From positions 1-34,917 of the IMG/VR virus record IMGVR_UViG_2541047813_000003: a stretch of DNA of 34,917 nucleotides; one strand, written 5' to 3'. This document shows, piece after piece, positions 4,708 to 19,773 of the stretch; the stretch's first letter is position 1; every line of letters starts with the position of its first letter. A model generated the notes under the pieces. It saw only the letters and a list, made by a program, of their open reading frames with translations, had not been told where the DNA came from and did not search any database. This stretch comes from a virus. Taxonomy: Duplodnaviria; Heunggongvirae; Uroviricota; Caudoviricetes. Made by a program: the position numbers and the translations under genes.

Positions 4708-5004
4708 TTATACCTCTGAATCAATATCAACATGGTGGTGAGCAATGGTTTCAACCATGTACCGGATGTGTTCTGCCATGCGCTCCTGAAACTCAACATC
4801 GTCATCAAACGCACGGGTAATGGCTTTTTTGCTGGCCCCGCAGCGTTGCAAATGATCGATGCAGAGTGATTCAAACAGGTGCTGTGGAAGACCTTTTTCC
4901 ATGTCGTCTGCCAGTTCTGCCTCTTTCTCTTCACGGGCGATCTGCTGGTAGTGACGCGCCCAGCTTTGAGCCTCAAGACGATCCTGAATGTAATAAGCGT
5001 TCAT
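4708..5004 (-). CDS. gam: Gam, RecBCD inhibitor (short 98-aa form)
   Basis: 98-aa translation matches lambda Gam ([34 protein letters not shown]...). An in-frame TAA lies upstream of the ATG, so no long N-terminal extension is encoded. Confidence 0.9.
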
Positions 5005-5079
5005 GGCTGAACTCCTGAAAATGGCTGTGAAAATATCGCCCGCGAAATGCCGGGCTGATTAGGAAAACAGGAAAGGGGA

Positions 5080-5370
5080 TTAGTGATTCAGGCCGTTGCC
5101 GCGCCCGTCGAGAAAAACTTCCACGAGCAAATCACGGGTATAAGTGCGCTCGATGCCGCGATGCAGATAAAGCCGTCCGCGTAAATTAGCTGATGCAGTC
5201 CAGGTACCATCTTTGTGTTTGACCAGCATTCCTGGCATGACCGCACCTCGATTAACGGTCTGCGTTCCGTAATGTTGATGAACCATAAAAACTCCTGCCC
5301 GTAAGCTGGGCTGCTGAACATATAGAGACTTCTGCGCGTATTCAGGCGGTGGATGGCCGCCGGTTGTCAT
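5080..5370 (-). CDS. Hypothetical protein, first gene downstream of predicted pL (lambda N/kil position)
   Basis: 96 aa from the ATG at 5370 (GAGGCGG RBS about 8 nt upstream). The ORF track extends the frame to a TTG at 5490, adding an arginine-rich stretch (RLREVRGVKRTRERR). Function unknown. Confidence 0.4.
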
Positions 5371-5508
5371 AACTAAGCCGCCTCGTTGAAACGACTGAGG
5401 TATGAAGTGTTGAGTTGATTTCAGCTGGTCACACCGACGTTCACGCGTCCGCTTCACCCCTCGCACTTCCCGAAGCCTGCTGAAATTCAAGCTGCGGACC
5501 TAAGCGGT

Positions 5509-5558
5509 CATCGCAACGGTGAATCAGGTGGTTGCCGTATCGTTGTGTTGTTGCGATG
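5509..5558 (-). promoter_or_regulatory. Stem-loop at the 5' end of the predicted pL transcript
   Basis: On the minus strand CAUCGCAAC ...32 nt... GUUGCGAUG (9-bp perfect inverted repeat), beginning at about +1 of the predicted pL transcript; no U-tract follows, so not a terminator. Confidence 0.3.
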
Positions 5559-5563
5559 AATTT

Positions 5564-5592
5564 ATTTAAAACTATAGTTGTTTTGTTGTCAA
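5564..5592 (-). promoter_or_regulatory. Predicted leftward early promoter pL
   Basis: Minus strand TTGACA (plus 5587-5592), 17-bp spacer, TTAAAT (plus 5564-5569); sits between the repressor-operon terminator and the leftward early genes. Confidence 0.5.
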
Positions 5593-5600
5593 CAACAAAA
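5581..5600. promoter_or_regulatory. Candidate oL operator palindrome overlapping pL -35
   Basis: TTTTGTTG-TCAA-CAACAAAA, 8-bp perfect inverted-repeat arms; further GTTGTT copies across 5577-5640; related to the palindrome at pR. Confidence 0.4.
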
Positions 5601-5729
5601 GTTGTTTTATTGGTTGTTTTAGATGTAACTGGTTGTATTTAGGATGGGTTTATTTTGTGACTTGCATCGCATAGCGATAACTGAAGGGAGATTGTGGTGG
5701 TTTTTTGAACGGTATACGTGATGAGGGGA

Positions 5730-5762
5730 GGGGATAAAAGAAAACCCGGCACGGTGGCCGGG
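5730..5762 (-). terminator. Intrinsic terminator ending the repressor operon
   Basis: Minus-strand hairpin CCCGGC-CACCGU-GCCGGG followed by UUUUCUUUUAU, starting 6 nt after the stop of the 5768-6709 gene. Confidence 0.6.
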
Positions 5763-5767
5763 TATCT

Positions 5768-6709
5768 TTATTCGAATGGAAGATCTATTTGCCTTTGAGG
5801 ATTCAACTGTTTTTTTACATGCTCAATTTCGAATATGGTTTTTATGGCATCTCCGATCATATATTGAGTTACTTTTAAATCTACAAGTAACATATCACCT
5901 TTAGAAAAATTTAAGGTGTTGTTATCAATATCGCTGATGAATTTCTGGTCTTTTATTTCAGCCAAAAAGCTACTGGCACCATCAGAAAACCGCCACCGGC
6001 TTCCTTCATTGAAGGAAATATTTTTAATTTGAAGGGCTTTCTCTACTGTGTACTCTGAAATTATTGATTCTGCTGGTAGATTGACTTTGAAATAATGTGC
6101 TTCTTGCTTGTTGATCGTCATGAATGTCAAACCATCATCGACAGTAGAGGCAAAGCTGTCAATGCCTTCCTGCTCTAATGGCTTACTTATAACTTCTTGT
6201 AATGAAGAGCGAAGTTTAATATTTTTATAAAGTTCAATAACGTTACTGTCGTAGATCTCGCTTTCGTCATCAACAAAGACTTCGATGTTGCTATCAGGCA
6301 AATTGTGTAATTTTTTTATTTTCCTTGGACCTATCCATTTTATCAGTTGAATTAGGCCTTTGCATATTTTTTCTTTAGAACCAGGACAGAGTCCAATAAA
6401 AGCAATCAAATTCGCAGCGGCTGTTGCTGAATCGCCGGATAAAAAATCAACAGCCTGTTTGAACCAAGATGTAGATGAGGCAACCAGATCTATTCCAAAT
6501 GAGCCAGCTTTAAATGATGCATTGACTTTTACAGAAACAACAGTCTTGTTTCCGTAGAGAGTTTTACCGGCTTCCTCTAATGCATCTGATAGTGATAGAA
6601 GGGCAGGAGCAAGGTCTCGCACGTTCATTTCATGCGTTTCCAGTGCCGGACCGTCGTATACTATCCTGAACTTCATATCATTGGTTTCCGAATTGTTGCC
6701 CGCATCCAT
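5768..6709 (-). CDS. Uncharacterized protein (about 313 aa) in the rexAB-equivalent slot, co-oriented with cI
   Basis: ORF 5768-6721 (GTG at 6721); first ATG at 6709 with AGGTGA RBS, alternative ATG at 6676. AT-rich relative to flanks. No recognisable catalytic or membrane motif; the sequence does not remind me of RexA/RexB. Confidence 0.75.
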   Translation of the reverse strand: MDAGNNSETNDMKFRIVYDGPALETHEMNVRDLAPALLSLSDALEEAGKTLYGNKTVVSVKVNASFKAGSFGIDLVASSTSWFKQAVDFLSGDSATAAANLIAFIGLCPGSKEKICKGLIQLIKWIGPRKIKKLHNLPDSNIEVFVDDESEIYDSNVIELYKNIKLRSSLQEVISKPLEQEGIDSFASTVDDGLTFMTINKQEAHYFKVNLPAESIISEYTVEKALQIKNISFNEGSRWRFSDGASSFLAEIKDQKFISDIDNNTLNFSKGDMLLVDLKVTQYMIGDAIKTIFEIEHVKKQLNPQRQIDLPFE

Positions 6710-6782
6710 TATGGCATTCACCTGATCACATATACAGTTAATTTACGATATTGTCTTAAATCTTAAAACTTCTATTGTATGG

Positions 6783-7472
6783 CTACCCATGCTTCCTATA
6801 CGTCTGCGGCATGCTCCCAATAACCTTACCGAAGATGAACACCCGGTTCATCTCGTCTTTCTCGATCGGGTCCCAAGGTGAGTAGCTCTTGTTATCAGAG
6901 ATAACCAGCAGCTTATCCTTCATCATTTGCAGACGCTTTACATGGGCTGTGTCGTCGTACAGAAACGCATAGATACCATCACCGTCGAAAGATTTAACCG
7001 TGATATCAACGAACAGCAGATCACCTGGTTCGATCGTTCCTGACATGCTGTCACCGCGTACGTTAATGATACGGATATTTTCCGCCTTCCTGCCATCGAA
7101 CATGTGACGAGCATCGTCAAACGAATACTCAACCGAACGTAGAACTTCTACAAACTCACGGTTGATGACTCCCGGCCCGGCACTCACTTCGATATCAAGA
7201 ACGTCAATCTTAAAGTATTTGGAATGGCTGACAGTTGTTTGTATTGGTTGCACTGTACTGTCTGACATATTTCCAACGCCAGAAGATAACCATTCTGCGC
7301 GCACACCCAAAGCGTTCGCGATCTCCACGATTTTAGTTGTTTGGTTAGCTTTCCCTGTTTCGATTTTCTGAATAGCTGCTTGGCTAACCCCGACCAAATC
7401 CCCAAGCGCCTTTTGTGTAAGGCCTCGCGCTAATCTGGCTTCTTTAAGTCTTTCTGAGAGTGTTGTTTTCAT
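6783..7472 (-). CDS. Prophage repressor (CI-type; N-terminal HTH plus C-terminal S24 LexA-like peptidase domain)
   Basis: 229 aa from the ATG at 7472: HTH (LTQKALGDLVGVSQAAIQKIE), Ala-Gly cleavage site (EVSAGPG), catalytic Ser (GDSMSGT) and Lys (VKRLQ). No SD before the ATG, and pRM -10 is 6 nt upstream, so the mRNA is probably leaderless as for lambda cI. Confidence 0.85.
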   Translation of the reverse strand: MKTTLSERLKEARLARGLTQKALGDLVGVSQAAIQKIETGKANQTTKIVEIANALGVRAEWLSSGVGNMSDSTVQPIQTTVSHSKYFKIDVLDIEVSAGPGVINREFVEVLRSVEYSFDDARHMFDGRKAENIRIINVRGDSMSGTIEPGDLLFVDITVKSFDGDGIYAFLYDDTAHVKRLQMMKDKLLVISDNKSYSPWDPIEKDEMNRVFIFGKVIGSMPQTYRKHG

Positions 7473-7478
7473 AGTCCA

Positions 7479-7507
7479 AATGTACAACCAAGGTTTTATT
7501 TCATCAA
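7479..7507 (-). promoter_or_regulatory. Predicted repressor maintenance promoter (pRM-like)
   Basis: Minus strand TTGATG (plus 7502-7507), 17-bp spacer, TACATT (plus 7479-7484), ending 6 nt before the cI ATG. Confidence 0.45.
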
Positions 7508-7514
7508 ACGAAAA

Positions 7515-7537
7515 TGGTTGTTGACTAAAAACAACCA
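7515..7537. promoter_or_regulatory. Candidate oR operator palindrome overlapping pR -35
   Basis: TGGTTGTT-GACTAAA-AACAACCA (8-bp perfect inverted arms); an adjacent 10-bp palindrome AACCATGGTT (7532-7541) and AACCAAGGTT (7487-7496) share the same half-site. Confidence 0.45.
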
Positions 7538-7549
7538 TGGTTTTAATCT
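7521..7549 (+). promoter_or_regulatory. Predicted rightward early promoter pR
   Basis: TTGACT (7521-7526), 17-bp spacer, TAATCT (7544-7549); followed by a GGAGG RBS and the cro-like ATG at 7577. Confidence 0.55.
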
Positions 7550-7576
7550 TGATTCAAATTAACCACGGAGGTTGTT

Positions 7577-7807
7577 ATGAACCCAGCCATCAAAACAGCG
7601 ATCAATATCGTTGGTTCACAAAAGAAACTAGGCGCTGCCTGCGAAGTTTCACAGCAGGCCGTCTATAAGTGGCTTCACAACAAAGCAAAGGTATCCCCTG
7701 AACATGTCGGCAGCATTGTTACGGCTACTGGTGGAGTAGTGAAGGCATACCAGATTCGCCCGGATCTTCCGAAGTTGTTTCCACACACTGAAAAGAACGC
7801 AGCTTAA
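7577..7807 (+). CDS. Cro-like HTH regulator
   Basis: 76-aa ORF divergent from the repressor gene, with an HTH-like segment (QKKLGAACEVSQQAVYKWL). Confidence 0.8.
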   Translation: MNPAIKTAINIVGSQKKLGAACEVSQQAVYKWLHNKAKVSPEHVGSIVTATGGVVKAYQIRPDLPKLFPHTEKNAA

Positions 7808-7819
7808 ATTTCCATTTCA

Positions 7820-7833
7820 CGCTCTTTAACAAT
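7820..7833 (+). promoter_or_regulatory. boxA-like element (nutR-position)
   Basis: CGCTCTTTAACAAT just after the cro-like stop; matches the boxA consensus CGCTCTTTA and the rrn-type boxA GCTCTTTAACAAT as I recall them. No convincing boxB hairpin follows. Confidence 0.4.
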
Positions 7834-7876
7834 AAGCAATCAACTTAACAGTCAATTCAAACTAAAGGAGTCAATT

Positions 7877-8416
7877 ATGCAACCACTTACATACCAACAG
7901 ACTAGCGGATTTAGCCCGACTGCGGTGATAAATCGTTCTCAAACAAAACAAGCTCCAGGCCACGAAAAAATCCGTGATGCCGTCCGCGCCTGGTCGGCTG
8001 TAGATAATCAGGATGTCGTTGCCGCACTCATTGTGAATGAGTATCGGGAGCAGGGCGGCGGCACCATCGATTTCCCTGATGATGTCAGCCGTGCACGCCA
8101 GAAGCTGTTCCGCTTCCTCGATAACAAATTCGATTCTGAAAAATACCGAAATAACGTGCGTGAACTGACCCCGGCAATTCTGGCGGTACTACCGCTGGAA
8201 TATCGCGGTTACCTAGTTGAGCAGGATAGCTTCATGGCTCGGCTGGCTGAAATGGAAAAGGAACTCAGTGAGGCAAAGCAGGCGGTCATTCTCAACGCAC
8301 CACGCCACCAGAAACTGAAGGAGATGAGTGAAGGCATTGTGTCGATGTTTCGAGTGGACCCGGATCTGGCTGGTCCACTGATGGCGATGGTCACCACCAT
8401 GCTGGGGGCAATATGA
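7877..8416 (+). CDS. Hypothetical protein in the cII position (possibly YdaT-like)
   Basis: 179-aa ORF with strong RBS (AAAGGAG); contains an EYREQGGG segment reminiscent of YdaT-type proteins that follow Cro-like genes in some E. coli prophages (recollection only). Confidence 0.6.
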   Translation: MQPLTYQQTSGFSPTAVINRSQTKQAPGHEKIRDAVRAWSAVDNQDVVAALIVNEYREQGGGTIDFPDDVSRARQKLFRFLDNKFDSEKYRNNVRELTPAILAVLPLEYRGYLVEQDSFMARLAEMEKELSEAKQAVILNAPRHQKLKEMSEGIVSMFRVDPDLAGPLMAMVTTMLGAI

Positions 8417-10130: not shown

Positions 10131-10429
10131 CGGGCAAAGAGGCAATTATTCATTACTTGGGGACTCATAAGAACTTCTGTGCGCAGGACGTTGCCGCGGT
10201 AACAGGTGCAACCGTAACCAGCATAAATCAGGCTGCGGCTAAAATGGCGCGGGCAGGAATCCTGGTCGTTGATGGTAAGGTCTGGCGAACGGTGTATTAT
10301 CGGTTCGCTACCAGAGAAGAATGGGAAGGAAAGGTGAGCACGAATTTGATTTTTAAGGAGTGTCGCCAGAGTGCCGCGATGAAACGGGTATTGAGGGTAT
10401 ATAAAAGAACATCAATGGGTACACAATGA
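10127..10429 (+). CDS. ren: Ren
   Basis: 100-aa translation closely resembles lambda Ren (MTGKEAIIHYLGTH...VTSINQAAAKMARAG...). Confidence 0.85.
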   Translation: MTGKEAIIHYLGTHKNFCAQDVAAVTGATVTSINQAAAKMARAGILVVDGKVWRTVYYRFATREEWEGKVSTNLIFKECRQSAAMKRVLRVYKRTSMGTQ

Positions 10430-10496
10430 TGAAACAGGTGAGTTGAGTTCAAACTGTAGTACAATTCTCTCCAGTTTGAACAGGAAAGAATATGCT

Positions 10497-10829
10497 ATGA
10501 ATCCTTATATTTATCTTGGTGGTGCAATACTTGCAGAGGTCATTGGTACAACCTTAATGAAGTTTTCAGAAGGTTTTACACGGTTATGGCCATCTGTTGG
10601 TACAATTATTTGTTATTGTGCATCATTCTGGTTATTAGCTCAGACGCTGGCTTATATTCCTACAGGGATTGCTTATGCTATCTGGTCAGGAGTCGGTATT
10701 GTCCTGATTAGCTTACTATCATGGGGATTTTTCGGCCAACGGTTGGACCTGCCAGCCATTATAGGCATGATGTTGATTTGTGCCGGTGTGTTGGTTATTA
10801 ATTTATTGTCACGAAGCACACCACATTAA
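10497..10829 (+). CDS. emrE: SMR-family multidrug efflux transporter EmrE
   Basis: 110 aa from the ATG at 10497 (MNPYIYLGGAILAEVIGTTLMKFSEGF...), matching E. coli EmrE with conserved Glu14 and four TM segments; the ORF track starts at an upstream TTG. Confidence 0.9.
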   Translation: MNPYIYLGGAILAEVIGTTLMKFSEGFTRLWPSVGTIICYCASFWLLAQTLAYIPTGIAYAIWSGVGIVLISLLSWGFFGQRLDLPAIIGMMLICAGVLVINLLSRSTPH

Positions 10830-11084
10830 AAATAATTTGTTTTTAAACGACTAAAATATGGAGGCTCGTATATTTATATGGGCCTCGTTTTATGCTTTTT
10901 GTTAATGTCTTTAGTTTTTATTCATTCTTTTGTGCTTTCAAGATTATGGTGTAAGAAAATTGCAATGCGATTATTGTTGTATATTCAAGATAATGTGACC
11001 TTAATTGTCTTTTTAAATAAAAATTAAACAAAAATCATATCTCACCACTAAGGTTTATAAAAGCATACTTTAGCAGGTGTCACC

Positions 11085-12611
11085 ATGAAAAAAGCCATAG
11101 CATATATGCGATTTTCATCACCAGGTCAGATGTCTGGTGATTCATTAAACCGCCAGAGAAGGCTTATTACTGAATGGCTAAAGGTAAATAGTGATTATTA
11201 CCTTGATACCGTAACGTATGAAGATTTGGGGTTAAGCGCATTCAATGGAAAGCATGCACAATCAGGAGCTTTTTCGGAATTTTTAGATGCTATAGAACAT
11301 GGTTATATATTGCCAGGGACTACATTGTTAGTTGAAAGTCTGGACAGACTTTCAAGAGAAAAAGTCGGTGAAGCGATTGAGCGTCTGAAATTGATTTTGA
11401 ATCACGGTATTGATGTTATAACTCTTTGCGATAATACAGTCTATAATATTGACTCATTGAATGAGCCATATTCATTAATAAAAGCCATACTTATAGCACA
11501 AAGGGCAAATGAAGAAAGCGAGATAAAGTCAAGTCGGGTTAAATTATCATGGAAGAAAAAACGGCAGGATGCACTGGAGTCAGGCACGATTATGACGGCT
11601 TCTTGTCCGAGATGGCTCTCATTGGATGACAAAAGAACGGCTTTTGTTCCAGACCCCGACAGGGTGAAAACTATTGAGCTAATTTTTAAACTCAGGATGG
11701 AAAGGCGCTCATTGAATGCAATAGCCAAGTATTTAAATGATCATGCTGTAAAGAATTTCTCAGGAAAAGAAAGTGCATGGGGACCTTCTGTAATTGAAAA
11801 ATTATTAGCGAATAAAGCTCTGATAGGTATATGCGTACCTTCATATCGTGCAAGAGGGAAAGGGATAAGTGAAATCGCTGGCTATTATCCCAGAGTCATA
11901 TCAGATGATTTGTTTTACGCTGTACAGGAAATTCGGTTGGCACCTTTTGGTATTAGCAATAGTAGCAAGAATCCTATGCTAATAAATCTACTTCGAACAG
12001 TTATGAAGTGTGAGGCTTGTGGTAATACCATGATTGTTCATGCGGTATCTGGAAGTTTGCATGGCTATTATGTTTGTCCGATGAGAAGATTACATCGATG
12101 TGACAGACCATCAATAAAAAGAGATTTGGTTGATTATAATATCATTAATGAATTGCTTTTTAATTGTAGCAAAATTCAACCAGTTGAAAACAAGAAAGAT
12201 GCTAATGAAACTTTAGAGTTAAAAATTATTGAGCTTCAGATGAAAATTAATAATTTAATCGTTGCATTGTCTGTCGCGCCTGAAGTTACCGCTATAGCAG
12301 AGAAAATAAGACTATTAGATAAGGAATTACGAAGGGCTTCGGTATCATTAAAAACTTTGAAGAGTAAAGGGGTGAGTTCACTTGGTGATTTTCATGCTAT
12401 TGATTTAACCAGTAAAAATGGGCGAGAGCTATGTCGTACACTTGCCTATAAAATATTCGAAAAAATTATAATTAATACAGATAATAAAACCTGTGATATC
12501 TATTTTATGAATGGCATTGTTTTTAAACACTATCCTTTAATGAAAGTAATATCCGCCCAGCAGGCGATAAGTACTCTTAAATATATGGTTGATGGTGAGA
12601 TTTATTTTTGA
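11085..12611 (+). CDS. ybcK: Large serine recombinase (DLP12 YbcK-like)
   Basis: 508 aa; N-terminal resolvase/invertase catalytic domain (AIAYMRFSSPGQ...), recombinase domain, Cys-rich zinc ribbon (CEACGN...CPMRRLHRC) and coiled-coil C-terminal region. AT-rich; same neighbourhood as ybcK in DLP12. Confidence 0.8.
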   Translation: MKKAIAYMRFSSPGQMSGDSLNRQRRLITEWLKVNSDYYLDTVTYEDLGLSAFNGKHAQSGAFSEFLDAIEHGYILPGTTLLVESLDRLSREKVGEAIERLKLILNHGIDVITLCDNTVYNIDSLNEPYSLIKAILIAQRANEESEIKSSRVKLSWKKKRQDALESGTIMTASCPRWLSLDDKRTAFVPDPDRVKTIELIFKLRMERRSLNAIAKYLNDHAVKNFSGKESAWGPSVIEKLLANKALIGICVPSYRARGKGISEIAGYYPRVISDDLFYAVQEIRLAPFGISNSSKNPMLINLLRTVMKCEACGNTMIVHAVSGSLHGYYVCPMRRLHRCDRPSIKRDLVDYNIINELLFNCSKIQPVENKKDANETLELKIIELQMKINNLIVALSVAPEVTAIAEKIRLLDKELRRASVSLKTLKSKGVSSLGDFHAIDLTSKNGRELCRTLAYKIFEKIIINTDNKTCDIYFMNGIVFKHYPLMKVISAQQAISTLKYMVDGEIYF

Positions 12612-12935
12612 GTAATAATCACTTTTTCAACCGTGCTATGGTATGAAAGTAAAGTGACTAATATGATATTAACTATCTTGAACGAAGCGCCCTGAGCTAT
12701 AGTTTTACTATAGGCACTGCCACTGGATGTTGGCATTCTTGCTCTAGTAGCTCAACAATACCCAATCACAAAACAATTCACTGATAACAAACTTTGTGCA
12801 CGTGCTTGGTTATGGCGAACAGGTGATGTTAACCTCTTGCCTGAATGCCACTCCACTTCATTAAGTATCTGAGCACCGAGAGGCTGGTCACGCCCCCATT
12901 AAAAATAATTTCTTTTGAATCGAGTGAAATAGGTT

Positions 12936-16513: not shown

Positions 16514-17596
16514 TTAGAACTGATAAACCAGACCTACAGCGACGATGTCGTCGGTATCAATACCAGCTGTTTTGGTAAACTTACTATCGTCAATTAAGTT
16601 GATTTTGTAATCAACAAAAGTGGACATGTTTTTATTAAAGTAGTAAGTAGCACCGACATCGACATACTTGACTAAGTCTCGGTCACCATGAACACCAAGG
16701 TCTTTACCTTTTGACTGAAGGTAAGCAACAGATGGTCGCAGACCGAAGTCAAACTGATATTGTGCTACTGCTTCAAAGTTTTGTGCTTTGTTTGCAATAT
16801 GGTTATTACCAAAAACGGTCATATTCTGAGTTTCAGAATATGTGGTAGCCAGATAGATATTGTTCGCATCATATTTCAGGCCTGCAGCCCATACTTCCGC
16901 ATTTTTGCCGGAGGCATTGAATTTGCTCTTACCATAGGCGACCTGACCGTCAGTGCGATCTGATTTAGCATAGGTTGCACCCACGCCGAATCCTTCATAC
17001 TCATAAGTAGTGGAGAAACCGAAACCATCACCATTGGCTTCAGTTACGTCAGTGCGGTCATTTTTACCCTGATACTGAGCAGCAAAGTTCAGGCCATCGA
17101 CCAGACCAAAGAAGTCGTTGTTACGATAAGTTGCAACACCAGTAGTGCGACCAGTCATGAACACATCTGTTTGGGTCCAGGTATCACCACCGAATTCTGG
17201 CAGGACGTCAGTCCACGCACCGATGTCGTATGCTACACCGTAGTTACGGCCGTAATCGATTGAGCCGTAATCACCAAATTTCAGGCCTGCAAATGCAAGA
17301 CGGGTTTTGTCTTTGGAAGAACCTTGAGATTCAGCACGGTTGCCTTTGAATTCATATTCCCACTGACCGAAACCAGTCAGTTGATCGTTGATTTGGGTTT
17401 CACCTTTGAAGCCAAGACGGGCATAAGTAGTATCACCATCATCTGCATCATTAGAGGAAAAGTAGTGCTTGGCATTAACTTTCCCGTATAGATCCAGCTT
17501 GTTACTGTCTTTATTATAAATTTCAGCTGCCTGAGCAGACATCGCCATCAGTACTGATGCAGCTACAGCAGAAATTGCCACTGTTAATTTTTTCAT
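16514..17596 (-). CDS. nmpC: Outer-membrane general porin (OmpC/OmpF family; NmpC/OmpD-like)
   Basis: 360 aa; signal peptide [23 protein letters not shown]; porin hallmarks including the C-terminal VGLVYQF beta-strand; antisense between Q and the lysis genes as in DLP12; intact here. Confidence 0.9.
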
Positions 17597-19479: not shown

Positions 19480-19773
19480 TTATTGTGAGCAATAGACACG
19501 CGCTTCCAGCGGAGTATAAATGCCTAAAGTAATAAAACCGAGCAATCCATTTACGAATGTTTGCTGGGTTTCTGTTTTAACAACATTTTCTGCGCCGCCA
19601 CAAATTTTGGCTGCATCAACAGTTTTCTCCTGTCCAATTCCCGAAACGAAGAAATGATGGGTGATGGTTTCCTTTGGTGTTACTGCTGTCGGTTTGTTTC
19701 CAACAGTAAACGTCTGTTGAGCACATCCTGTAATAAGCATTGCCAGAGCGGCAGAAAACAACATTTTTTTCAT
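19480..19773 (-). CDS. bor: Bor lipoprotein (serum-resistance family)
   Basis: 97 aa from the ATG at 19773 (MKKMLFSAALAMLITGCAQQTF...); lipobox ITGC; near-identical to lambda Bor. Confidence 0.9.
   Translation of the reverse strand: MKKMLFSAALAMLITGCAQQTFTVGNKPTAVTPKETITHHFFVSGIGQEKTVDAAKICGGAENVVKTETQQTFVNGLLGFITLGIYTPLEARVYCSQ

What the first reader, a model, noticed from the sequence alone, without database searches (positions are those of the whole stretch)
5768..6721. Unassignable AT-rich gene in the rexAB-equivalent slot, co-oriented with the repressor: candidate lysogen-expressed defense gene
A gene of about 313 codons sits between the CI repressor gene and the predicted pL promoter, on the repressor strand, 61 nt downstream of the cI stop, and is followed directly by a strong intrinsic terminator (5730-5762). 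This is the position rexA-rexB occupy in lambda, i.e. cargo transcribed with the repressor from pRM in the lysogen. Its DNA is visibly AT-richer than the GC-rich Red and morphogenesis modules around it, suggesting separate acquisition. I cannot recognise any catalytic, nucleotide-binding or membrane motif in the protein, and it does not resemble RexA or RexB as I recall them. Immunity-region cargo in lambdoid prophages is repeatedly abortive-infection or exclusion genes, so a single-gene anti-phage function is the leading hypothesis.
Basis: partly seen in the sequence, partly recalled or inferred. Interest (0 to 1): 0.85.

Follow-up and report, generated by a model that had tools for sequence, protein, structure and literature searches.

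The report
Prophage repressor-linked candidate anti-phage gene
A real 313-codon gene sits as swappable cargo directly behind the repressor gene of an E. coli lambda-like prophage. It belongs to a very large uncharacterised family that two published computational screens already list as a candidate anti-phage defence gene, and nobody appears to have tested it.

Summary
An ORF at 5768-6709 (minus strand, 313 aa from the ATG) lies between the cI stop (6783) and an intrinsic terminator (5734-5763). The terminator lies upstream of a pL-like promoter and operator (about 5570-5600). GC is 0.35 against 0.51 in the flanks.

Homology to five related phages stops exactly at the cI stop codon and at the terminator, so 5769-6782 is an exchangeable cassette. 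Relatives carry seven other cargos there, all co-oriented with cI, or nothing. Those cargos include GevTA, HipA/HipD and PADLOC candidates.

The protein is not unassignable. It matches PADLOC PDC-S42 (3e-86), NCBIfam NF053583 "LAPAL motif" (2e-80) and phrog_3243. The exact accession, WP_000338655.1, is a DefensePredictor "predicted novel defense gene" (log-odds 6.4) that was not among the units screened. I found no experimental test.

The family has at least 5,310 clusters, all stand-alone proteins of about 300 aa with no conserved partner gene. In viral contigs the commonest upstream neighbour is a cI-type repressor.

The fold has a highly conserved N-terminal domain, a Gly/Ala-rich hydrophobic helix, a ferredoxin-like middle domain and an acidic C-terminal OB fold. 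No catalytic motif is visible.

Best reading: lysogen-expressed, single-protein anti-phage cargo, about 0.6. The mechanism is unknown.

The parts
5768..6709 (-). Cargo gene. It encodes a 313-aa LAPAL-motif protein (WP_000338655.1; PADLOC PDC-S42, NCBIfam NF053583, phrog_3243). Coordinates include the stop codon at 5768-5770.
   Evidence: AF2 model pLDDT 83.8.
6710..6782 (-). AT-rich leader that belongs to the cassette. It holds the Shine-Dalgarno AGGTGA at 6718-6723. No hairpin terminator lies between the cI stop and the cargo start.
5769..6782 (.). Exchangeable cargo cassette. Similarity to related phages ends at 6783 on one side and at 5762-5771 on the other.
   Evidence: The empty site in PhiR34_1 is about 115 bp.
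5734..5763 (-). Intrinsic terminator of the repressor operon. It is backbone sequence shared by all relatives and insulates pL-kil from read-through.
6783..7472 (-). cI repressor (HTH_3 plus Peptidase_S24), 229 aa as annotated.
7473..7576 (.). OR/pRM/pR region between cI and cro. It contains the 25-bp perfect palindrome at 7514-7538, which includes TTGACT.
5570..5600 (-). pL-like promoter with an operator-like site (GTTGTTGACAACAAAACAA, 5578-5596). It reads into kil-gam-bet-exo.
   Evidence: kil = phrog_294.

Best explanation
The gene is accessory cargo of the prophage immunity operon. It is inserted between the cI stop codon and the operon's terminator, so it should be transcribed with cI from pRM in the lysogen. 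This is inferred from the anatomy, not shown.

Its product is a soluble, acidic, stand-alone protein of about 35 kDa with no conserved partner. It most likely protects the lysogen against superinfecting phages, the same role RexAB (lambda), BstA (BTP1) and the toxin-antitoxin cargos of sister phages play in this slot.

Proposed working (inference). The more variable middle and C-terminal OB-fold domains recognise a phage-made cue, more likely a protein than naked ssDNA because the OB domain is acidic. The strongly conserved N-terminal YDGPAL...DLAPAL domain, with the adjoining Gly/Ala-rich hydrophobic helix, executes the response. Only two invariant charged residues (D19, D272) and no nuclease, NTPase, NADase or peptidase motif are seen. 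The action is therefore probably stoichiometric, by sequestration, oligomerisation or membrane perturbation, rather than enzymatic.
For: Anatomy:
- The gene is co-oriented with cI, has a good SD, has no intervening terminator, and is followed by a strong shared terminator and then pL.
- Cassette borders fall exactly at the cI stop and at the terminator in five relatives.
- Seven other cargos occupy the slot, all co-oriented with cI, and one relative has an empty site.
- Three of those cargos match PADLOC candidates. Two are deposited as GevT/GevA and HipA/HipD toxin-antitoxin pairs.

Independent predictions:
- PDC-S42 at 3.4e-86 over the full length. PDCs were derived by 'guilt-by-embedding' inside Hma, BREX, DISARM and type I RM loci.
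- WP_000338655.1 is a 'Predicted novel defense gene' with mean log-odds 6.42 in DefensePredictor Table S5.

Context of homologues:
- Directly behind unrelated repressors in E. coli Rac-like prophages, Salmonella, a prophage in a metagenome scaffold (taxon not determined) and Methylobacter prophages.
- Next to the integrase in Lactobacillus A2, a Listeria phage, a Bifidobacterium phage and one further integrated element.
- Beside a BstA_C protein in Acinetobacter and behind a MADS-like ATPase.
- In 51 viral loci the upstream neighbour carries HTH_3 in 17, S24 in 14 and CI_repr in 6.

Other points:
- The only recurrent neighbour is a repressor, and there is no partner gene.
- Presence is patchy and recent: 34 of 5,426 E. 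coli genomes, all >=99% identical, behind at least two different cI alleles, with occasional IS1 or frameshift inactivation.
- The cI-N region is a known hotspot holding rexAB and bstA (PMC8585504).
- Domain conservation: motif 14-37 is 75% identical to distant members, against 34-35% for the middle and OB domains.
Against: No experiment supports it. No expression data or phenotype exist, and the accession is absent from DefensePredictor's screened and validated tables. That predictor's overall validation rate was about 45%.

In a one-genome-per-species sample, most immediate neighbours are ordinary chromosomal genes and few are known defence genes.

NCBIfam names the family a 'putative phage structural protein'. 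In a few Mu-like prophages the gene lies after gpG in the head module.

Confidence: 0.6

Rival explanations
1. The gene is a lysogenic-conversion moron whose benefit is unrelated to phages. It would be expressed in the lysogen but would modulate host physiology, for example stress, SOS or DNA metabolism, through its OB-fold domain.
For: The positional evidence is the same as for defence. Many homologues sit alone among housekeeping genes rather than in defence islands. DinI-like neighbours occur in two viral loci. No effector motif is recognisable.
Against: Two independent defence predictors flag it. Sister cargos in the same slot are defence-type systems. The patchy, recently spread and sometimes inactivated distribution is typical of defence genes. 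There is no signal peptide or canonical transmembrane segment that would suggest a surface or virulence role.
Confidence: 0.17
2. The gene is a counter-defence (anti-defence) or other infection-stage accessory protein that serves the phage itself. One example would be an acidic decoy that binds a host defence or repair protein.
For: The protein is strongly acidic, with pI 5.07 and net charge about -10, and the OB domain has pI about 5.0. It has no catalytic motif. It is carried only by phages and mobile elements in the close contexts examined.
Against: It lies in the repressor operon, which is transcribed in lysogens, upstream of the terminator that precedes pL. It does not lie in the early lytic pL/pR operons where lambdoid anti-defence genes such as gam and ral sit. 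Homologues also occur embedded in or beside host defence loci.
Confidence: 0.1
3. The gene encodes a phage structural or morphogenesis protein, as the NCBIfam name 'LAPAL motif-containing putative phage structural protein' implies.
For: The NCBIfam label. In Mu-like prophages the gene follows the gpG-like Phage_tail_S gene, and in L048 it precedes the Mu protease I gene. OB folds occur in some tail proteins (general knowledge, not tested here).
Against: Here the gene lies in the immunity region, opposite in orientation to the late genes and bracketed by cI and a terminator. Nearly identical phages lack it or carry unrelated genes in its place, so it cannot be an essential virion part. Only 3-4 of 51 viral loci have a morphogenesis neighbour, against 17 or more with a repressor. 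No PHROG structural category is assigned.
Confidence: 0.05

Closest known systems
RexA/RexB of phage lambda
   Same: Same genomic slot and logic. It is cargo between cI and pL on the repressor strand, closed by a terminator, and hence expected to be made in the lysogen. The slot is recognised as a mosaic hotspot (PMC8585504).
   Different: This is one gene rather than two. It has no sequence match to any PADLOC model other than PDC-S42 at E<=10. It has no multi-pass membrane protein like RexB; at most it has a borderline hydrophobic helix.
BstA (Salmonella prophage BTP1) abortive-infection protein
   Same: A single protein of about 300 aa encoded directly downstream of the prophage repressor, presumably sharing its promoter. 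It is widespread in prophages of several proteobacterial classes. A LAPAL homologue lies about 1.2 kb (two genes) from a BstA_C gene in Acinetobacter.
   Different: No KilA-N or BstA_C domain was detected. The fold is different: N-terminal alpha/beta domain, then a ferredoxin-like domain, then an OB fold. No aba-like self-immunity element was looked for.
PADLOC PDC-S42 / NCBIfam NF053583 (LAPAL_fam) / phrog_3243
   Same: Full-length, high-scoring membership in all three. The window protein is simply a member.
   Different: These are catalogue families without tested function. The NCBIfam product name ('structural protein') conflicts with the gene's context here.
GevT/GevA, HipA/HipD and PDC-M63 cargos of sister phages (PhiR47_2, PhiR5_1, PhiR30_1)
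   Same: They occupy exactly the same cassette site, between the same cI stop and the same terminator, in phages 95-97% identical in the flanks.
   Different: They are two-gene systems unrelated in sequence. The LAPAL gene stands alone.
OB-fold ssDNA-binding proteins (RPA, Rim1/SSB, PriB, ExoVII large subunit)
   Different: Sequence identity is 6-15% and there is no Pfam SSB match. The domain is acidic, unlike typical ssDNA binders. The whole three-domain architecture has no counterpart in the PDB.
EACC1 (Effector Associated Constant Component 1; Kaur et al. 2020, PMC7159879)
   Same: Sub-threshold Pfam hits in 4 of 62 family members; for the two whose coordinates were obtained, they align the same region to EACC1 positions 43-104. 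That region is the small-residue-rich hydrophobic helix plus the following segment. EACC1 is described as one conserved TM helix with a glycine-rich patch flanked by alpha+beta extensions.
   Different: Scores are below Pfam's cutoff (13-15.6 bits against 23.6). The window protein itself does not hit. No caspase-type partner gene is present. This is a lead only.

Membership tests
PADLOC PDC-S42 / NCBIfam NF053583 LAPAL_fam / phrog_3243 | Full-length HMM match above the family cutoff | tested here: met
   PDC-S42: E 3.4e-86, residues 15-316 against profile 3-300 of 302. NF053583: 270 bits against a cutoff of 60. phrog_3243: E 1.3e-116.
PADLOC PDC-S42 / NCBIfam NF053583 LAPAL_fam / phrog_3243 | LAPAL sequence motif | tested here: met
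   VRDLAPALL at residues 30-38 of the 313-aa protein. L33 and P35 are invariant and A34, A36 and L37 are at least 90% conserved across 45 members.
Immunity-operon (cI-to-pL) lysogen-expressed cargo, the RexAB/BstA kind | Located between the repressor stop and pL, co-oriented with the repressor, with no terminator before it and one after it | tested here: met
Immunity-operon (cI-to-pL) lysogen-expressed cargo, the RexAB/BstA kind | Transcribed in the lysogen | not testable with these tools
   No transcriptome is available. This is inferred from the anatomy only.
Immunity-operon (cI-to-pL) lysogen-expressed cargo, the RexAB/BstA kind | Confers resistance to superinfecting phages | not testable with these tools
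   Only computational predictions exist. The accession is not in DefensePredictor's screened set, Tables S6-S8.
RexA/RexB | Sequence homology to RexA or RexB, and a two-gene sensor plus membrane-channel organisation | tested here: not met
   The PADLOC scan at E<=10 returned only PDC-S42, assuming PADLOC-DB v2.0.0 holds RexAB models (from my knowledge, not checked here). The gene is single, with no conserved neighbour.
BstA | [quoted passage not shown] | tested here: not met
   Neither domain appears in the Pfam scans of the protein or of 62 family members, or among the PADLOC matches.
SSB/RPA-type ssDNA-binding proteins | OB fold | tested here: met
SSB/RPA-type ssDNA-binding proteins | Sequence-family membership and a basic nucleic-acid-binding surface | tested here: not met
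   No Pfam or PDB sequence match. The OB domain has median pI 5.0 and net charge about -4. Actual DNA binding was not testable.
Phage structural protein (NCBIfam product name) | Encoded in, and conserved with, the morphogenesis module | tested here: not met
   Here the gene lies in the immunity region. It is absent or replaced in phages with 95-97% identical flanks. A repressor neighbour is far commoner than a morphogenesis neighbour.
EACC1 (PF19953) | Pfam match above the gathering score, and a caspase-type partner gene | tested here: not met
   Best score 15.6 bits against a cutoff of 23.6, in 4 of 62 members and not in the window protein. No conserved partner.

The most novel reading that the evidence does not exclude
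The LAPAL family would be a very widespread, single-chain, non-enzymatic immune protein of a new architecture. It has at least 5,310 clusters across Proteobacteria, CPR phyla, Bacteroidota, Firmicutes and Actinobacteria phages. In this reading, an acidic OB-fold and ferredoxin-like sensor holds a conserved N-terminal domain and a latent Gly/Ala-rich hydrophobic helix (EACC1-like) in a soluble state. Recognition of a phage protein releases the helix to oligomerise in, or perturb, the membrane. That would be a one-protein functional analogue of RexA plus RexB.
Probability: 0.15. Interest if true: 0.75.

Novelty: new member of a known kind. Interest (0 to 1): 0.5.

Why it matters
If the prediction holds, one of the largest still-uncharacterised candidate defence families would gain a function and a convenient model. 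The gene is single and 942 bp long. It has a natural promoter context in E. coli. Natural isogenic comparators exist, namely phages with the same backbone and an empty or differently filled slot.

The protein has no recognisable enzymatic motif and a three-domain fold with no solved counterpart, so the mechanism would probably be new.

The locus also documents, at base-pair resolution, a cassette-exchange site between the cI stop codon and the operon terminator. That site could be mined for further cargo, and several occupants have no database match at all.

The idea that this gene is defensive is already in the literature as a prediction, so the finding sharpens and contextualises a known candidate and does not reveal something unsuspected.

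Tried and rejected
Searches that found nothing useful:
- Pfam on the protein: only a noise hit, DUF2004 at E 0.11.
- Profile search of PDB sequences: nothing at E<=10.
- Rfam on 5000-8000: only a spurious miRNA hit.
- Foldseek against AFDB50: the library was unavailable.

Ideas tested and rejected or left weak:
- A conserved partner gene. All-against-all comparison of up to four genes either side in 88 loci found only repressors recurring, so a two-gene system is rejected.
- A canonical transmembrane segment. The window protein's maximum KD19 is 1.31, and 18 of 45 relatives reach 1.6 at the same position. This is borderline and is kept only as a lead.
- Classical ssDNA-binding function. It is weakened by the acidic OB domain.
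- Defence-island enrichment of immediate neighbours in diverse genomes. It is weak, with a few methyltransferases, one MADS-like ATPase and one PDC-M63B.

Literature:
- 'PDC-S42', 'LAPAL motif', 'LAPAL' with 'phage', 'WP_000338655' and 'GevT' with 'prophage' gave no papers.
- Brenes & Laub 2025 (pmid 40409266) is probably the source of the PhiR phages, though the reference list was not opened to confirm it. It is not held, so I could not check whether it tested this gene.
- The supplements of the PADLOC 'embedding' preprint do not mention S42.

Side question:
- A put- or nut-like structured leader after pL. The fold z-score is -0.66, so it is not supported.

Full report
**What is there**

The window begins at the integrase end of a lambda-like prophage that sits next to icd in E. 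coli genomes. On the minus strand the order is exo, bet, gam, kil, a pL-like promoter, a terminator, the gene in question, then cI. cro, a YdaT-type 'cII', O and P follow on the plus strand.

The ORF finder gives 5768-6721 (317 aa, GTG start). That GTG lies inside the Shine-Dalgarno AGGTGA (6718-6723), 8 nt before the ATG at 6709. The product is therefore 313 aa, as in RefSeq (WP_000338655.1) and in the 100%-identical protein cluster P0001.

The cI stop is at 6783. No hairpin terminator lies in the 73-nt leader.

Four nucleotides after the cargo stop comes ACCCGGCCACCGUGCCGGGU followed by UUUUCUUUU. Its dG is -16.6 kcal/mol, z is -4.3, and no shuffle of 200 folds as well.

About 150 nt further on the same strand, GTTGTTGACAACAAAACAA (5578-5596) repeats the operator-with-embedded-minus-35 design of the 25-bp palindrome at OR (7514-7538). 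This is the pL/OL region, and it reads into kil.

GC falls to 0.345-0.38 over the gene, against 0.51-0.53 in the Red genes.

**It is an exchangeable cassette**

Megablast of 5300-7900 found the flanks in 2,241 of 5,426 complete E. coli genomes, but the whole arrangement in only 21.

I aligned the window with five sequenced relatives: PhiR47_2, PhiR5_1, PhiR34_1, PhiR26_1 and Perceval. Similarity runs at 91-97% up to 5762-5771 and resumes at 89-98% at 6783-6784, which is the terminator and the cI stop codon.

Between these points the relatives carry the following:
- GevT/GevA
- HipA/HipD
- a putative lipoprotein
- a 340-aa protein plus a membrane protein
- a PDC-M63-like pair
- an ASCH-containing pair
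- a three-gene set
- only about 115 bp (PhiR34_1)

All of these cargos are co-oriented with cI. GevT matches PADLOC PDC-M11A, HipA/HipD match PDC-M66A/B, and the PhiR30_1 pair matches PDC-M63A/B.

The terminator therefore belongs to the backbone, and cargo is placed inside the repressor transcription unit. That is the arrangement of rexAB in lambda and bstA in BTP1. [quoted passage not shown]

The cargo gene itself occurs in 34 of 5,426 E. coli genomes, always at least 99% identical. It lies behind at least two different cI/cro alleles. One copy is split by IS1 and a few carry a 2-nt deletion.

**What the protein is**

It is not unassignable. It matches these families over the full length:
- PADLOC PDC-S42: E 3.4e-86.
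- NCBIfam NF053583, 'LAPAL motif-containing putative phage structural protein': 270 bits against a cutoff of 60.
- phrog_3243, unknown function.

Pfam and PDB sequence searches are empty.

PDC families are 'phage defence candidates' proposed because a member was found embedded inside Hma, BREX, DISARM or type I RM loci. They were added to PADLOC untested (bioRxiv 10.1101/2024.01.29.577857).

Independently, the exact accession is listed in DefensePredictor's Table S5 as a 'Predicted novel defense gene' with mean log-odds 6.42, against a strict cutoff of 4. It is absent from the fully held tables of screened and validated units (PMC13092281). No paper text mentions the accession, PDC-S42 or the LAPAL motif.

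The defence hypothesis is therefore already published as a prediction, and as far as I can find it has never been tested.

**Family and context**

An exhaustive profile search finds 5,310 50%-identity cluster representatives at E<=1e-3, and 1,739 at E<=1e-30. The best 150 are all stand-alone proteins, nearly all of about 280-350 aa (a few are shorter fragments). Hosts range over Proteobacteria, CPR phyla, Bacteroidota, Nitrospinota and others. Relatives at 27-33% identity occur in Lactobacillus phage A2, a Listeria phage and a Bifidobacterium phage.

Contexts of individual homologues:

| Homologue and host | Context |
|---|---|
| 60% identical, E. coli Rac-like prophages | Directly behind the repressor and before kilR-recE-recT. 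K-12 Rac holds ydaG, ydaF and sieB in that interval. |
| 56% identical, Salmonella | Behind an HTH repressor and before kilR-gam |
| About 40% identical, metagenome scaffold (taxon not determined) and Methylobacter | Behind S24 repressors |
| Phage A2, Listeria phage, Bifidobacterium phage, one further integrated element | Beside the integrase |
| Acinetobacter | Shares a small island with a HIRAN protein and a BstA_C protein |
| One uncultured gammaproteobacterium | Follows a MADS-like ATPase |

Among 51 non-redundant viral-contig loci, the upstream neighbour is co-oriented in 43. It carries HTH_3 in 17, Peptidase_S24 in 14 and Phage_CI_repr in 6. Morphogenesis neighbours, Mu gpG or gpF, occur in 4.

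In a one-genome-per-species sample the picture is more dilute. Repressors are still the only recurrent neighbour (12 of 88 loci) and there is no conserved partner gene. Many copies sit alone among housekeeping genes and few sit next to known defence genes. This agrees with the PADLOC authors' remark that embedding-derived candidates associate less with defence islands.

The 'structural protein' name probably reflects the Mu-like cases, where the gene lies between gpG and the protease gene. It does not fit this locus.

**Structure**

AlphaFold2 with a 45-sequence alignment gives pLDDT 83.8 and pTM 0.70. The domains are:
1. An N-terminal alpha/beta domain (residues 12-79) bearing F-x-V-Y-D-G-P-A-L ... 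M-D-V-R-D-L-A-P-A-L. This is by far the most conserved part, at 75% identity to distant members over residues 14-37, against 34-35% elsewhere.
2. A low-confidence linker with a Gly/Ala-rich hydrophobic helix (about 90-112). It is the most hydrophobic segment in 40 of 45 members. It reaches the classical transmembrane threshold in 18 of them, but not in the window protein.

The OB domain and the whole protein are acidic, with pI about 5.0 and 5.07 and a net charge of about -10. That argues against a simple ssDNA binder.

The only invariant charged residues are D19 and D272, and no nuclease, NTPase, NADase or peptidase signature is present.

Four of 62 members give sub-threshold hits to Pfam EACC1. 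In the two members whose hit coordinates I obtained, the hits align the hydrophobic helix region in the same register. Kaur et al. describe EACC1 as a conserved TM helix with a glycine-rich patch flanked by alpha+beta extensions, acting in conflict systems (PMC7159879). This is a lead, not a membership.

**Interpretation**

Shown:
- The gene, its family memberships and its exact placement inside the repressor operon.
- The cassette nature of the slot.
- The recurrence of family members behind unrelated repressors.
- The absence of a partner gene.
- The fold.

Inferred:
- Co-transcription with cI in the lysogen.
- An anti-phage role, at about 0.6.
- A non-enzymatic sensor-effector mechanism, in which the variable middle and OB domains sense a phage product and the conserved N-terminal domain plus hydrophobic helix act.

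Rivals:
- Non-defence lysogenic conversion, about 0.17.
- Counter-defence or another phage-serving accessory role, about 0.1.
- A structural protein, about 0.05.

**Novelty and score**

This is a new, well-anchored member of a known kind: defence-type cargo of the cI-pL hotspot. It comes from a catalogued but functionally untested family. A specialist would not be surprised by the location or the prediction, because both are in print. The unknowns are the mechanism and whether the prediction is true. The locus offers an unusually clean test system. Interest: 0.5.

Noticed in passing
window 5321-5570: No N-like antiterminator gene lies between the pL-like promoter and kil. There is only a leader of about 200 nt. 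It has no Rfam match and folds no better than shuffles (z -0.66). How leftward transcription passes terminators in this phage group is unclear.
   Followed up: partly
window 7514-7538 and 5578-5596: A 25-bp perfect palindrome (ATGGTTGTTGACTAAAAACAACCAT) lies between cI and cro and contains a TTGACT -35 element. A related half-palindromic site with TTGACA lies at pL. These are probably the repressor operators. The longest cI ORF (251 aa) runs through the palindrome, so the annotated 229-aa start at 7472 is more plausible.
   Followed up: partly
L008:1966-3516, L024:1276-2798, L007:1968-2348 (same slot in phages Perceval, PhiR70_1, PhiR26_1): Several alternative cargos of the same cI-to-terminator slot have no PADLOC match at all. 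They are a 340-aa protein plus a 168-aa membrane protein, a three-gene set (two of its genes scanned) and a 126-aa putative lipoprotein. They are further untested candidates for lysogen-expressed functions.
   Followed up: partly
window 10400-12800: A second AT-rich block (GC 0.30-0.40) lies after the replication genes. In the annotated E. coli N50 copy it holds emrE and a ybcK-type serine recombinase, followed by an alpha/beta hydrolase on the opposite strand. This resembles DLP12-like nin-region cargo.
   Followed up: no
window 16514-17596 and about 19480-19773: A porin gene (annotated ompC in the identical N50 prophage) and an iss/bor-type serum-survival lipoprotein gene sit on the minus strand around the lysis cassette. 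These are classic lysogenic-conversion morons.
   Followed up: no
window 7877-8416: The gene in the cII position is a YdaT-domain protein. It is annotated 'toxin YdaT domain-containing protein' in RefSeq and 'cII' in the PhiR phage records.
   Followed up: no
L194 and L195 (E. coli 2013C-3264 and STEC17-183); hit H77 (STEC388): The identical cargo cassette sits behind a different cI/cro allele in some genomes. It is interrupted by IS1 in STEC388 and carries a 2-nt deletion in a few STEC and JNEC strains, which gives a 286-aa annotation. The cassette both shuffles between immunity types and decays.
   Followed up: partly
L048:4341-7131 and L029:5470-6906: In Mu-like prophages the LAPAL gene is inserted right after the gpG-like Phage_tail_S gene. 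In L048 it also lies before the Mu protease I gene, which places it inside the head-morphogenesis block.
   Followed up: partly
L011:6001-9067 (Acinetobacter pittii): A small chromosomal island combines a LAPAL homologue, a HIRAN-domain protein, a 78-aa ORF and a BstA_C-domain protein. The same arrangement appears in four assemblies.
   Followed up: no
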